The notes below the pieces were generated by a model. It saw only the letters and a program-made list of their open reading frames with translations, searched no databases and was not told the DNA's origin. A DNA stretch of 64,000 bases. Source: Escherichia coli (lineage in GTDB: Bacteria; Pseudomonadota; Gammaproteobacteria; Enterobacterales; Enterobacteriaceae). Position numbers and translations under genes: made by a program. Of the stretch, positions 16,868 to 22,576 are shown in pieces (positions within the stretch are counted from its first letter, which is position 1; each line of letters begins with the position of its first letter). Where the stretch lies: the NCBI RefSeq assembly GCF_030384885.1, contig NZ_CP128613.1. The stretch is one strand, 5' to 3'.

Positions 16868-17602
16868 ATGTCCAAACTCGATCTAAATGCCCTGAACGAA
16901 CTGCCGAAGGTAGATCGCATTCTGGCGCTGGCGGAAACTAACGCCGAGCTTGAAAAACTGGATGCTGAAGGCCGCGTTGCCTGGGCGCTGGAAAATCTGC
17001 CCGGTGAATATGTGCTTTCTTCCAGTTTCGGCATTCAGGCGGCGGTGAGCCTGCATCTGGTTAATCAGATTCGCCCGGATATCCCGGTGATCCTGACCGA
17101 TACGGGTTATCTGTTCCCGGAAACCTACCGCTTTATTGACGAGTTAACGGACAAACTCAAGCTCAACCTGAAAGTGTACCGCGCTACCGAAAGCGCCGCC
17201 TGGCAGGAAGCACGCTACGGCAAACTGTGGGAGCAGGGCGTTGAAGGCATTGAAAAGTACAACGATATCAACAAAGTCGAACCGATGAACCGGGCGCTGA
17301 AAGAACTGAACGCACAAACGTGGTTTGCTGGCCTGCGCCGTGAACAATCCGGCAGCCGCGCTAATTTACCGGTGTTGGCAATTCAACGTGGTGTATTTAA
17401 AGTGCTGCCGATTATCGACTGGGATAACCGAACTATTTATCAGTATCTGCAAAAACATGGCCTGAAATATCACCCATTATGGGACGAAGGATATTTATCG
17501 GTTGGTGATACACATACAACCCGTAAATGGGAACCCGGTATGGCGGAAGAAGAAACGCGTTTCTTTGGCTTAAAAAGGGAATGTGGGCTGCACGAAGGGT
17601 AA
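16868..17602 (+). CDS. cysH: Phosphoadenosine phosphosulfate (PAPS) reductase (244 aa)
   Basis: Start [14 protein letters not shown] at ATG 16868 with gagg SD; track ORF from 16706 rejected as in-frame extension. Confidence 0.93.
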
Positions 17603-17865
17603 ATATTGTCGGATAAAATAAACGCCTCTGTCAGAAATGATGGGGGTGTTTTTATTTTGCGAGCAGCATTCCGGCATTTAAACGTGAATATAGCAGGGGA
17701 AATCAACAGTTATAGAATGGCGTCGGGTGCTTGAGGCTGTCTGGCGTTAAGCATTCGCGAGGTTCCAGATGGACAAAAGCCCCAGGCGATATATCTATCA
17801 ACCTGAGGCTCGCGTTCGAACGTAGCAATTCGGATGTTAGTCTCTTCTTTGCAGGGAGGCAAGAC

Positions 17866-18018
17866 ATGCTGACAAAATATGCCCTTGTGGCAATCATCGT
17901 ACTGTGTTGTACAGTACTGGGATTCACGCTGATGGTAGGCGACTCGTTGTGTGAGTTGAGTATCAGAGAACGTGGTATGGAGTTTAAGGCAGTTCTCGCT
18001 TACGAATCGAAGAAGTAG
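17866..18018 (+). CDS. Hok/Gef-family type I toxin, HokE-like small membrane peptide (50 aa)
   Basis: ATG 17866 after GGGAGG; peptide [50 protein letters not shown] has one TM helix and the conserved Hok C-terminal pattern; 8-bp stem-loop 18024-18045 follows the stop. Confidence 0.75.
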
Positions 18019-18256
18019 CCACCACGCGGGGGTAAAACCCCGCGTATTGAATTGTGATGGTTTGGTCTCCTGCACCCTTTTTTTCATTTATATTGTTTTT
18101 GTGAATATTATGCCTGTGTTTATTATTTATATATATCACAGATGAAAATCATTGAATTATTCATAATGTGAATATTTTATTGAACGATATATATCACAGA
18201 TAATTTTTAATATATGCGTAAATATCCTTTAAGTTTTACTGAAGGATAAAAACATT

Positions 18257-19690
18257 GTGACTTTCTTTGATTTCTGGGGAAAAACCCGACGTGGCGAGAA
18301 AGAGGGTGGCGACGATTATCACCTTCTTTGCTGGCATTCGCTGGATGTAGCCGCGATAGGCTATTTAATGGTCAAAAACAACTGTTTCGGGCTGGCTGAC
18401 TATTTTCGTCAATTAGGTTTCGCTGACACGGATCAGGCAGCACAATTTTTCGCCTGGTTGTTGTGCTGGCACGATACTGGAAAATTTGCCCGCTCATTTC
18501 AGCAACTTTACCTGCACCCACAACTCAAGGTTCCGGAAGGCGCAAGAAAGAATTACGAAAAGATCTCTCATTCAACGCTGGGTTACTGGTTGTGGCATCA
18601 TTATTTAATTGAATGTGAAGAGTTGCTTCCTTCATCTTCACTCTCTTTGCGCAAACTTAAACGAGTAATAGATATGTGGATGCCCGTGACGACCGGGCAT
18701 CATGGTCGGCCTCCTGACCGTATCGATGAACTGGACAACTTTCTGCCTGAAGACAAAGCTGCCGCACGGGATTTTCTCCTTGAAATCAAGGTACTGTTTC
18801 CGCTCATCGAGATCCCTACATTCTGGGATGATGACGAGGGCGTTGAACTTATAAAACATTTTTCCTGGTATATCTCTGCAACCGTCGTACTCGCAGACTG
18901 GACGGGATCGTCAACGCGGTTTTTTCCACGCGTTGCACAGGCAATGGATATTAAAGATTACTGGCAGAAGGCTTTAGTTCAGGCTCAAAACGCATTAACC
19001 GTCTTTCCCCCAAAAGCAGAAAGCGCGCCTTTCACTGGAATTAATACGCTGTTTCCTTTTATTGAGAACCCAACACCGTTACAGCAAAAGGTGTTGGATC
19101 TGGATATCAGCCAGCCAGGACCACAGTTGTTTATTCTGGAAGATGTGACTGGCGCAGGTAAAACAGAAGCGGCGCTTATCCTGGCGCACAGGTTGATGTC
19201 TGCGGGGAAAGCACAGGGTTTGTTTTTTGGTTTGCCAACAATGGCAACGGCCAATGCCATGTACGATAGGCTGGTAAAAACCTGGCTTGCTTTCTATTCG
19301 CCACAATCCCGCCCCAGCCTGGTGCTGGCACACAGCGCTCGTTCGCTAATGGATCGCTTTAACGCATCGCTGTGGTCTGGTGATTTTGTGGGGTCAGAAG
19401 AACCGGATGAACAAGCGTTCAGTCAGGGATGTGCGGCCTGGTTTGCTGACAGTAACAAGAAGGCGTTGCTGGCTGAAATTGGCGTCGGCACGCTGGATCA
19501 GGCGATGATGGCGGTGATGCCGTTCAAACATAATAATCTGCGGCTTCTGGGGCTGAGTAACAAAATCCTGCTAGCCGATGAGATCCACGCCTGTGACGCT
19601 TATATGTCGTGCATTCTTGAAGGGCTGATCGAGCGGCAGGCGCGTGGCGGAAACAGCGTTATTTTGCTTTCTGCTACGTTGCCGGGGTAG
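18257..19690 (+). pseudogene. cas3: Truncated cas3: N-terminal HD nuclease plus start of helicase domain, about 477 codons of an expected roughly 890
   Basis: GTG start; HD-domain N-terminus (HLLCWHSLDVAA...WHDTGKF), Walker A GAGKT and LLSATLP motifs; ORF stops at 19690 and a cas5e fragment begins 57 bp later. Confidence 0.85.
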
Positions 19691-22242: not shown

Positions 22243-22576
22243 GTGTTCCCCGCGCCAGCGGGGATAAACCGAATACCCAGCGCTATTTCGAGCGCGAGAG
22301 AGTGTGTTCCCCGCGCCAGCGGGGATAAACCGGAAATTTCGGAAATTAAATCCGCTCGCGATCGGTGTTCCCCGCGCCAGCGGGGATAAACCCCATGGCA
22401 GGAAGAGCGGATGATTTAGGGGTAAGTGTTCCCCGCGCCAGCGGGGATAAACCGAAGCCGGATCACATTTTCTTAGCGGAGCTGACGTGTTCCCCGCGCC
22501 AGCGGGGATAAACCGCTCTCGGTTCTGGGGTACTGTTACCCATAACTGAGCTCCCCCGCGTCAGCGGGGGAACTCC
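22243..22576 (+). CRISPR. Type I-E CRISPR array next to cas2: 6 repeats (GTGTTCCCCGCGCCAGCGGGGATAAACCG; third ends in C; last degenerate) and 5 spacers of 32 bp
   Basis: Repeats read at 22243, 22304, 22365, 22426, 22487 and degenerate at 22548. Confidence 0.95.

What the first reader, a model, noticed from the sequence alone, without database searches (positions are those of the whole stretch)
18100..18256. Direct repeat tatatatcacagat in the AT-rich cas3 upstream region
Two copies of a 14-bp element (about 18130-18143 and 18188-18201) lie 58 bp apart in the very AT-rich segment immediately upstream of the cas3 GTG start. This could be paired binding sites for a regulator or nucleoid protein controlling the truncated cas3 and the downstream cas6e-cas1-cas2 genes, which have lost the internal promoter region together with cse1.
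Basis: seen in the sequence. Interest (0 to 1): 0.3.

Follow-up and report, generated by a model that had tools for sequence, protein, structure and literature searches.

The report
Lineage-specific repeat in cas3 promoter
The two identical 15-base copies upstream of cas3 are real, but only the one nearest the gene is conserved: it overlaps a probable CRP-type activator site in the cas3 promoter, while the other copy is an accident of one rare E. coli lineage, so the finding is ordinary.

Summary
The repeat exists and is one base longer than reported: ATATATATCACAGAT at 18129-18143 and 18187-18201, 58 bp apart. It lies in the 82%-AT tract between the hok terminator and the cas3 GTG at 18257. 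Locally it is unlikely by chance (0-4 of 5000 shuffles).

It is not a conserved pair. The downstream copy is invariant in 12 sampled E. coli alleles. The upstream copy sits in the fastest-evolving part of the spacer, and its CACAG core reads CACCA, TATAG, TACTG, TACGG or TTCAA elsewhere. Only about 6 of 5,426 complete E. coli genomes carry the window-type allele. No third copy occurs in the window or in an intact cas locus.

The downstream copy supplies the spacer and TCACA half of AACGATATATATCACA (18183-18198). This start, 74 bp before the start codon, falls where cas3 orthologues of seven other genera carry 8-9/10 matches to the CRP core (0 of 1000 shuffles). A -10-like hexamer follows 20-21 nt later, the geometry of the CRP-activated K-12 cas3 promoter.

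Most likely the downstream copy belongs to a CRP-type, presumably H-NS-silenced, cas3 promoter and the upstream copy is a bystander. Binding and the transcription start are untested. Interest is low.

The parts
18129..18143 (+). Upstream copy of the 15-bp repeat ATATATATCACAGAT. It is exact only in the window-type allele and is probably a non-functional bystander.
   Evidence: It varies in other alleles (ATATATATCACCAAT, ATATATTTTATAGAT, ATATATATTACTGAT, ATATATATTACGGAT, TATGAATTTCAAAT). It reads ATATATATTACAGAT in Escherichia sp. MOD1.
18187..18201 (+). Downstream copy of the 15-bp repeat. It is conserved and lies inside the cas3 core promoter region.
   Evidence: Invariant in all 12 E. coli sequences of alignment A2. 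Its TCACA core is retained 60 to 64 bp before the start codon in E. albertii and Intestinirhabdus.
18183..18198 (.). Predicted CRP-type (CRP/FNR family) core site AACGA-TATATA-TCACA. It starts 74 bp before the GTG and is centred at 18190.5.
   Evidence: 7/10 match to TGTGA-N6-TCACA here. The O157/SE11 and CFSAN alleles read 8/10, by my count from alignment A2. Seven other genera have 8-9/10 matches starting 71 to 80 bp before their cas3 start codons, against a shuffle mean of 0.11, with 0 of 1000 shuffles reaching 7. Binding is inferred, not shown.
18219..18225 (+). Predicted -10 element (TAAATA or AAATAT), 20-21 nt after TCACA. This implies a transcription start near 18231-18233.
   Evidence: GCGTAAATATCC is invariant in 12 E. 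coli sequences. TAAA is invariant in 8 sequences including E. albertii (TAAAAT) and Intestinirhabdus. The geometry matches K-12 TCGAA-N21-GATAAT (PMC7019758). The transcription start is not mapped.
18199..18204 (+). Alternative -10 candidate GATAAT. Its first three bases are the last three of the downstream copy.
   Evidence: 5/6 match to TATAAT. With TTTATT 17 bp upstream it scores 8/12. It is conserved in E. coli alleles but reads AATTAA in Intestinirhabdus.
18086..18256 (.). AT-rich tract between the hok terminator T-run and the cas3 start. It is the presumed H-NS-type silenced promoter region. It is crowded with weak promoter-like hexamer pairs on both strands.
   Evidence: G+C is 0.18-0.20. 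There are 21 TpA steps in 131 bp. Seven plus-strand and eleven minus-strand hexamer pairs reach 8/12 or better. No ORF or Rfam family is present.
18091..18109 (+). First copy of a looser repeat (TATTGTTTTTGTGAATATT). Its partner is at 18158-18176, 79% identical, at a spacing of 67 bp rather than 58.
   Evidence: family D1. The pair ATGTGAAT/ATGTAAAT recurs in other alleles.
18162..18167 (+). CATAAT hexamer, exactly 21 nt after the upstream copy's TCACA. It is relevant only to the speculative second-promoter reading.
   Evidence: Read. It is conserved in most alleles.
18243..18247 (+). Shine-Dalgarno-like AAGGA, 9 nt before the GTG.
   Evidence: Read. It is invariant in the E. coli alleles.
18257..19690 (+). 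Truncated cas3 (477 aa, the HD domain plus the start of the helicase). It is fused at 19680/19681 to cas5e sequence by a 4,628-bp deletion.
   Evidence: The N-terminus aligns with K-12 Cas3 from residue 6 against residue 10.
17866..18018 (+). hok toxin gene. Its transcript's G+C-rich 3' region and T-run (to about 18085) bound the AT-rich tract on the left.
   Evidence: The sok RNA family matches 17725-17881.

Best explanation
The two copies are not a functional pair.

The downstream copy (18187-18201) is part of the conserved cas3 core promoter. Its TATATA-TCACA forms the spacer and the promoter-proximal half of a CRP-type site, AACGATATATATCACA (18183-18198). A weak -10 (TAAATAT, 18219-18225) follows 20-21 nt later. 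This is the geometry of a class II activator-dependent promoter with no usable -35, and it implies a start near 18232 and a leader of about 25 nt carrying the AAGGA ribosome-binding site before GTG 18257. The surrounding 82%-AT tract is the kind of DNA that H-NS coats, so the promoter is probably silenced by H-NS and helped by cAMP-CRP, as reported for the unrelated K-12 cas3 allele.

The upstream copy (18129-18143) lies in the rapidly drifting, slippage-prone spacer behind the hok terminator. An older, imperfect resemblance (ATATATATTACAGAT in Escherichia sp. MOD1) became perfect in one rare lineage by a single T-to-C change.

Shown here: the repeat, its rarity, the conservation asymmetry and the positional conservation of CRP-like sites. 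Inferred: CRP binding, H-NS binding, the -10 element and the transcription start.
For: - **Repeat is real and locally non-random:**
- **Downstream copy invariant, upstream copy hypervariable:** seen in 12 E. coli sequences.
- **Conservation asymmetry:** between alleles, the half of the spacer holding the upstream copy is 80-90% identical. The half holding the downstream copy is 90-97% identical, and cas3 coding sequence is 91-94%.
- **Rarity:** the window-type allele is at 99% identity or more in 5 genomes and at 98.5% in 1, out of 5,426. About 981 genomes carry the RIVM-type allele and the rest a more diverged one.
- **No self-similarity elsewhere:** the spacer's best self-match is not significant in the other alleles (460, 938, 333 and 587 of 1000 shuffles).
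- **TCACA at a fixed distance:** it lies 60 to 64 bp before the start codon in E. albertii and Intestinirhabdus despite diverged flanks.
- **Positional enrichment of CRP-like sites:** matches of 8/10 or better start 71 to 80 bp before the start codon in 7 of 29 species, with only 2 such matches elsewhere in 200 bp. The shuffle mean is 0.11 and 0 of 1000 shuffles reach 7.
- **K-12 precedent:** the K-12 cas3 promoter has TATGAgcagcaTCGAA-N21-GATAAT. CRP-cAMP footprinting, loss of binding on mutation and 3.5-4-fold lower activity without CRP or the site are reported in PMC7019758. An eight-fold rise of cas3 transcript in stationary-phase cells lacking H-NS is reported in PMC4782391.
Against: - The window's site matches the CRP core at only 7/10, and its left half (AACGA) lacks one of the two key G residues. 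Matches of 7/10 are common in AT-rich DNA: 17 of 29 upstream regions have one elsewhere.
- The -80 to -71 window was chosen after seeing the data.
- Some orthologous sites fit FNR (TTGAT-N4-ATCAA) about as well (my reading).
- The proposed -10 is weak (3/6), and GATAAT (18199-18204) is a better hexamer.
- No transcription start, ChIP or footprint data exist for this allele. The only enteric CRP ChIP-seq list I found is from H10407, which carries the K-12-type allele.
- The 14/15 resemblance of the two copies in MOD1 (60 of 1000 shuffles) leaves room for an old duplication.
Confidence: 0.55

Rival explanations
1. First reader's reading. Both copies are binding sites for one sequence-specific regulator or are twin nucleation sites for a nucleoid protein (H-NS, LeuO). 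Together they control cas3 and the genes read through from it.
For: The exact 15-bp identity is unlikely by chance locally. Both copies are TpA-rich and sit in 82%-AT DNA. ACGATATATA at 18184 matches the proU-type H-NS motif TCGATATATT at 8/10 (the motif is recalled from my own knowledge). H-NS control of cas3 is known in K-12 and in Salmonella Typhi (PMC4782391, PMC8039139).
Against: The upstream copy is not conserved, and only about 0.1% of E. coli genomes have the exact pair. The H-NS-like CGAT precedes only the downstream copy and is itself variable (GCTGAT, AATGAT). The 58-bp spacing puts the copies on opposite helix faces. No other copy is found in the window or near casA. H-NS would bind this tract whatever the exact 15-mer.
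Confidence: 0.1
2. The downstream copy matters as plain sigma-70 promoter sequence, not as an activator site. Its last three bases begin the -10 hexamer GATAAT (18199-18204) and the rest is spacer, giving a start near 18211.
For: GATAAT is the best -10-like hexamer near the gene. It scores 5/6 and keeps the key A and T positions, and with TTTATT 17 bp upstream the pair scores 8/12. It is conserved in the E. coli alleles. It reads CATAGT and GAATAT in the SCPM and E. albertii sequences, which keep the A and the T.
Against: The -35 is poor. Intestinirhabdus has AATTAA at that place. This model does not explain why TCACA, which would be spacer, is the most deeply conserved element, nor why CRP-like palindromes sit at the same distance in seven other genera.
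Confidence: 0.2
3. The copies are relics of an old tandem duplication of a promoter module of about 58-67 bp (TGTGAATATT ... ATATATATCACAGAT). The common alleles have since decayed it.
For: Two repeat families lie in the same order: D1 (18091-18109 and 18158-18176, 79% identical) and the 15-mer. Escherichia sp. MOD1 keeps 15 of 17 bases identical at the same 58-bp spacing. The D1 pair is still the best self-match in the SCPM allele (51 of 1000 shuffles). The tract clearly changes by slippage: MOD1 lacks roughly 40 bp between the two TTTATAT repeats (with family D5).
Against: The two families have different spacings (67 and 58 bp). By my count, identity beyond the 15-mer in the 58-bp register is about 37%, which is what AT-rich DNA gives by chance. 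Self-similarity is not significant in the common alleles.
Confidence: 0.12

Closest known systems
CRP-activated cas3 promoter of E. coli K-12 (Yang et al. 2020, PMC7019758)
   Same: It controls the same gene and sits in the same place, between cysH and cas3. An imperfect CRP core at 7/10 is followed after 21 nt by a -10-like hexamer, and there is no good -35. The right half of the site ends 52 bp before the start codon in K-12 and 59 bp before it here.
   Different: The allele is different. The Cas3 proteins are only 31% identical and the upstream DNA is not alignable. K-12 has lost hok. CRP binding is demonstrated for K-12 and only inferred here.
H-NS-silenced, LeuO-relieved cas promoters (K-12 Pcas and the CRISPR leader; Salmonella Typhi cas3 and the cas-CRISPR operon)
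   Same: Very AT-rich upstream DNA next to horizontally mobile cas genes. H-NS repression of cas3 is reported in both K-12 and S. Typhi (PMC4782391, PMC8039139).
   Different: No binding data exist for this allele. In S. Typhi cas3 is divergent from the operon (PMC8039139). Nothing ties H-NS or LeuO to the 15-mer itself.
Direct-repeat operator pairs or iteron-like sites
   Same: Two identical 15-bp direct repeats lie in a regulatory region.
   Different: Only one copy is conserved. The spacing is a half-integral number of helical turns. There are no further copies and no nearby gene for a cognate regulator.

Membership tests
CRP-dependent class II promoter | A site resembling TGTGA-N6-TCACA | tested here: inconclusive
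   AACGATATATATCACA matches 7/10, with a perfect right half and a weak left half. The O157/SE11 and CFSAN alleles match 8/10, by my count from alignment A2. A 7/10 match alone is common in AT-rich DNA.
CRP-dependent class II promoter | The site is conserved in position among orthologous promoters | tested here: met
   Matches of 8-9/10 start 71 to 80 bp before the cas3 start codon in 7 of 29 species, with 2 elsewhere. 0 of 1000 shuffles reach this count. TCACA lies 60 to 64 bp before the start codon in E. albertii and Intestinirhabdus.
CRP-dependent class II promoter | Site centre near -41.5 relative to the transcription start, overlapping the -35 position | not testable with these tools
   Only the predicted geometry is available: TCACA-N20/21-TAAATAT. 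No mapped transcription start exists for this allele.
CRP-dependent class II promoter | cAMP-CRP binds the site and activity falls without CRP | not testable with these tools
   Shown only for the K-12 allele (PMC7019758).
H-NS-silenced AT-rich promoter | AT content well above the genome average, with many TpA steps | tested here: met
   82% AT and 21 TpA steps in 131 bp.
H-NS-silenced AT-rich promoter | H-NS occupancy and derepression when hns is deleted | not testable with these tools
   Known for cas3 in K-12 and S. Typhi (PMC4782391, PMC8039139), not for this allele.
Paired direct-repeat operator sites | Both copies are conserved in relatives | tested here: not met
   The upstream copy has six variants in 12 E. 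coli sequences. The window-type allele occurs in about 6 of 5,426 genomes.
Paired direct-repeat operator sites | The copies are helically phased, or the motif recurs at co-regulated promoters | tested here: not met
   58 bp is about 5.5 turns. No other copy with 3 or fewer mismatches occurs in the intact cas locus L006, and none with 2 or fewer in the 64-kb window.
Tandem duplication | Homology extends beyond the repeat core in one register | tested here: not met
   Identity beyond the 15-mer at the 58-bp offset is about 37% (my count). The second repeat family has a 67-bp offset.

The most novel reading that the evidence does not exclude
In the window-type lineage, the T-to-C change that perfected the upstream copy also created a TCACA half-site exactly 21 nt upstream of the conserved CATAAT hexamer (18162-18167). 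This could give a second, lineage-specific CRP-type promoter 58 bp upstream of the ancestral one. That would raise cas3 transcription and, in this deletion strain, read-through into cas6e-cas1-cas2.
Probability: 0.06. Interest if true: 0.3.

Novelty: new member of a known kind. Interest (0 to 1): 0.12.

Why it matters
It matters little for the repeat itself, which is a lineage-specific coincidence and not a regulatory device. The useful by-product is modest. The widespread non-K-12 type I-E cas3 allele is present in about 3,300 of 5,426 complete E. coli genomes, including O157:H7. Its promoter appears to share the CRP-type, activator-dependent architecture shown experimentally for the unrelated K-12 allele, and similar sites sit at the same distance from cas3 in several other enterobacterial genera. 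If confirmed, linking cas3 expression to cAMP and carbon status would be a general feature of enterobacterial type I-E systems and not a K-12 peculiarity. The analysis also suggests that many RefSeq 'frameshifted cas3' pseudogene calls stem from an over-extended start codon.

Tried and rejected
- **Another RNA or small gene in the tract:** the Rfam scan found only sok and a chance ctRNA hit at the cysH terminator. No credible ORF is present.
- **A motif shared with the casA promoter or elsewhere:** no further copies.
- **Sequence homology with the K-12 cas3 upstream region:** GATATCATCGATAAT in K-12 resembles GATATATATCACAGATAAT here. The proteins are only 31% identical and the rest does not align, so I treat this as a resemblance of architecture and not as homology.
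- **Salmonella Typhi cas3 promoter mapping as a guide:** cas3 there is divergent from the operon (PMC8039139), so it is not transferable.
- **ETEC H10407 CRP ChIP-seq list:** there is no cas3 peak, but H10407 carries the K-12-type allele interrupted by an IS66-family element, so it is uninformative.
- **A lambda-operator-like reading of TATCAC, IHF, FNR and RcsB-box resemblances:** I considered these by eye. Each lacks its second half-site or key positions. Only FNR stays ambiguous at some orthologous sites.
- **Picking the true promoter from consensus scans:** the tract has 18 hexamer pairs at 8/12 or better on the two strands, so sequence alone cannot decide.

Full report
**Observation.**
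The window around the finding reads cysJ-cysI-cysH, a hok/sok toxin-antitoxin locus, an AT-rich spacer, then cas3. The sok RNA family matches 17725-17881 and the hok CDS is 17866-18018.

The repeat is real and one base longer than reported. ATATATATCACAGAT occurs at 18129-18143 and 18187-18201, 58 bp apart, and nowhere else in the 64-kb window even with two mismatches. The tract from about 18086 to 18256 has 18-20% G+C.

An exact direct repeat of 15 bp or more arose in 0 of 5000 dinucleotide-preserving shuffles of the spacer. It arose in 2 and 4 of 5000 shuffles of its two AT-rich sub-regions. The observation therefore stands and is locally non-random. Over the thousands of spacers in a genome it is not extraordinary.

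**Context.**
The window is 100% identical to E. coli 2013C-4282 on both sides of a 4,628-bp deletion whose junction is at 19680/19681. The deletion removes the 3' half of cas3, the cas3-casA spacer, casA, casB, cas7e and the start of cas5e. What remains is an N-terminal Cas3 ORF (18257-19690), a Cas5e fragment, Cas6e, Cas1e and Cas2e.

The GTG at 18257 is the credible start for four reasons:
- It is preceded by AAGGA at the right distance.
- It is invariant in eight sequences, out to Intestinirhabdus.
- It aligns with the start of K-12 Cas3.
- RefSeq's ATG, which corresponds to window 18214, is thrown out of frame by a one-T indel in several alleles.

**Is the pair conserved?**
It is not. The spacer is present in 3,286 of 5,426 complete E. 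coli genomes. The window-type allele of its AT-rich core is at 99% identity or more in only 5 genomes and at 98.5% in 1. About 981 genomes carry a 90-95% allele, and the remainder carry an O157/SE11-type allele too diverged for megablast.

In an alignment of 12 E. coli sequences, the downstream copy and its flank (GATATATATCACAGAT) are invariant. The upstream copy reads CACAG, CACCA, TATAG, TACTG, TACGG or, with a 3-bp deletion, TTCAA at its core.

Between alleles, the half of the spacer with the upstream copy is 80-90% identical. The half with the downstream copy is 90-97% identical, and cas3 coding sequence is 91-94%. The best self-match of the spacer is not significant in the RIVM, O157, SE11 or Pseudocitrobacter alleles.

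Escherichia sp. MOD1 has ATATATATTACAGAT upstream and ATATATGTCACAGAT downstream. An imperfect resemblance is therefore old, and a single T-to-C change makes it perfect in the window lineage. MOD1 also lacks roughly 40 bp between two TTTATAT repeats, so the tract evolves by slippage.

**What the downstream copy is.**
I retrieved cas3 orthologues with their upstream DNA from one genome per species. TCACA lies 63 bp before the start codon in the window, 60 bp in E. albertii and 64 bp in Intestinirhabdus, although the surrounding sequence has diverged.

I then scanned 200 bp upstream of cas3 in 29 species for the CRP core TGTGA-N6-TCACA. Matches of 8-9/10 start 71 to 80 bp before the start codon in seven species:

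| Species | Site | Site start (bp before start codon) |
|---|---|---|
| E. albertii | GGCGACGCTCATCACA | 71 |
| S. enterica subsp. diarizonae | CGTGAGGTGTATCAAA | 72 |
| Citrobacter MAG | TGTGAGGTGTGTCAAT | 73 |
| Phytobacter ursingii | GGTGATTTAAATCACA | 74 |
| Serratia inhibens | TGTGCCGAATGTTACA | 74 |
| Intestinirhabdus alba | ATTGAGATGGCTCACA | 75 |
| Klebsiella grimontii | TTTGATGTAAATCACA | 80 |

Only two such matches occur anywhere else in those 200-bp regions. Shuffles give a mean of 0.11 sequences, and none of 1000 shuffles reaches seven.

The window's AACGATATATATCACA (18183-18198) starts 74 bp before the GTG and scores 7/10. By my count from alignment A2, the commonest E. coli allele (GCTGATATATATCACA) scores 8/10. 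The 15-mer thus supplies the six-base spacer and the TCACA half-site.

A -10-like hexamer follows 20-22 nt after the right half in most of these species. It is TAAATA/AAATAT at 18219-18225 here, within a block (GCGTAAATATCC) that is invariant in E. coli. It is TAAAAT in E. albertii.

This is the geometry of a class II CRP-dependent promoter. It is also the geometry of the K-12 cas3 promoter, TATGAgcagcaTCGAA-N21-GATAAT. For that promoter, a cAMP-CRP footprint, loss of binding on mutation and a 3.5-4-fold drop in activity without CRP or the site have been published (PMC7019758).

H-NS represses cas3 in K-12 stationary phase and in Salmonella Typhi (PMC4782391, PMC8039139). The 82%-AT tract here is the kind of DNA H-NS binds (established knowledge). 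Neither interaction has been tested for this allele.

**Mechanism proposed.**
- **Shown:** the repeat, its rarity, the asymmetric conservation and the positionally conserved CRP-like site.
- **Inferred:** cAMP-CRP, or a close family member, binds at 18183-18198 and recruits RNA polymerase to a weak -10 at 18219-18225. This gives a start near 18232 and a short leader with the ribosome-binding site. H-NS coats the tract and keeps it low.
- **Bystander:** the upstream copy has no role.
- **Consequence in this strain:** transcripts from this promoter would be the main route into cas6e-cas1-cas2, because the internal promoter region is deleted.

**Rivals.**
- **Paired sites for one regulator or twin H-NS nucleation sites (0.10).** This fails on conservation, helical phasing and the absence of other copies.
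- **Plain sigma-70 promoter using GATAAT at 18199-18204 (0.20).** It remains possible but does not explain the deep conservation of TCACA.
- **Decayed tandem duplication (0.12).** It is weakly suggested by the second repeat family and by MOD1. The two families have different offsets and the flanks are no more alike than chance.

**Limits.**
The CRP assignment rests on consensus counts and not on a weight matrix. The positional window was chosen after seeing the data. Several of the orthologous sites also resemble FNR sites. The AT-rich tract carries 18 promoter-like hexamer pairs, so sequence alone cannot fix the start.

**Verdict.**
The feature is a new member of a known kind, a CRP-type cas3 promoter in the non-K-12 allele. 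Interest is low (0.12).

Noticed in passing
window 18214-18256 (also L001, L003-L005, L007-L013): RefSeq starts this cas3 allele at an ATG equivalent to window 18214 (MRKYPLSLLKDKNIV...). It then flags cas3 as 'frameshifted' in genomes with TTTT rather than TTT at 18235-18238. The indel, the lack of a ribosome-binding site before the ATG, the AAGGA before GTG 18257 and the alignment with K-12 Cas3 all suggest the ATG extension is an annotation artefact. Some of these pseudogene calls are therefore probably spurious.
   Followed up: partly
window 19680/19681: A 4,628-bp deletion relative to E. coli 2013C-4282 (L006 3680-8307) fuses mid-cas3 to cas5e with only 2 bp (TG) of microhomology. The flanks are 100% identical to that strain. 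No complete E. coli genome in the collection shows the same architecture.
   Followed up: partly
window about 18028-18030; L009, L011-L013, L016: An IS421 (IS4-family) element sits about 10 bp after the hok stop codon in many E. coli genomes. It is at the same junction (…GCGCTTATG|GGGTAAAACCCC) in the E. albertii type strain. This suggests either a site-specific target or horizontal transfer of the IS-cas3 block. It would cut off the 3' end of the hok mRNA.
   Followed up: partly
L014 (E. coli GF60), equivalent to window about 18161: An IS21-family element (ISSso4) is inserted just before CATAATG. It leaves only about 95 bp of native sequence, with the downstream copy only, ahead of an intact annotated cas3. 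This is a natural test of whether the upstream copy is needed, but no expression data exist.
   Followed up: no
window 18136-18140 and aligned columns of A2: The five bases CACAG of the upstream copy have six different versions among 12 E. coli sequences, while the flanking ATATATAT and ATGAAAATCATT are much more stable. This is a small hypervariable spot without an explanation.
   Followed up: no
window 17725-18018 versus L002 (K-12): This allele keeps an intact hok/sok locus. In K-12 the sequence diverges right at the hok ATG (caagacATG|tgtatatcac...), so hok is gone and only sokX is annotated. The boundary between the two cas3 allele types therefore lies inside hok.
   Followed up: partly
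window 18089-18132; L015: Escherichia sp. MOD1 lacks roughly 40 bp lying between two TTTATAT direct repeats (family D5). This is evidence that the tract changes by slippage between short AT-rich repeats.
   Followed up: partly
window 16868-17602 (cysH): cysH is only about 95% identical to the cysH of three other E. coli strains. That is low for a housekeeping gene within the species, so the whole cysH-cas neighbourhood of this lineage looks divergent or recombinant.
   Followed up: no
L095 (ETEC H10407): H10407 carries the K-12-type cas3 allele, split by an IS66-family element (ISCro1).
   Followed up: no
window about 22243-22514: A short CRISPR array lies downstream of cas2. It is annotated as 272 bp at the matching position in the sister strain, which would fit about five repeats.
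   Followed up: no
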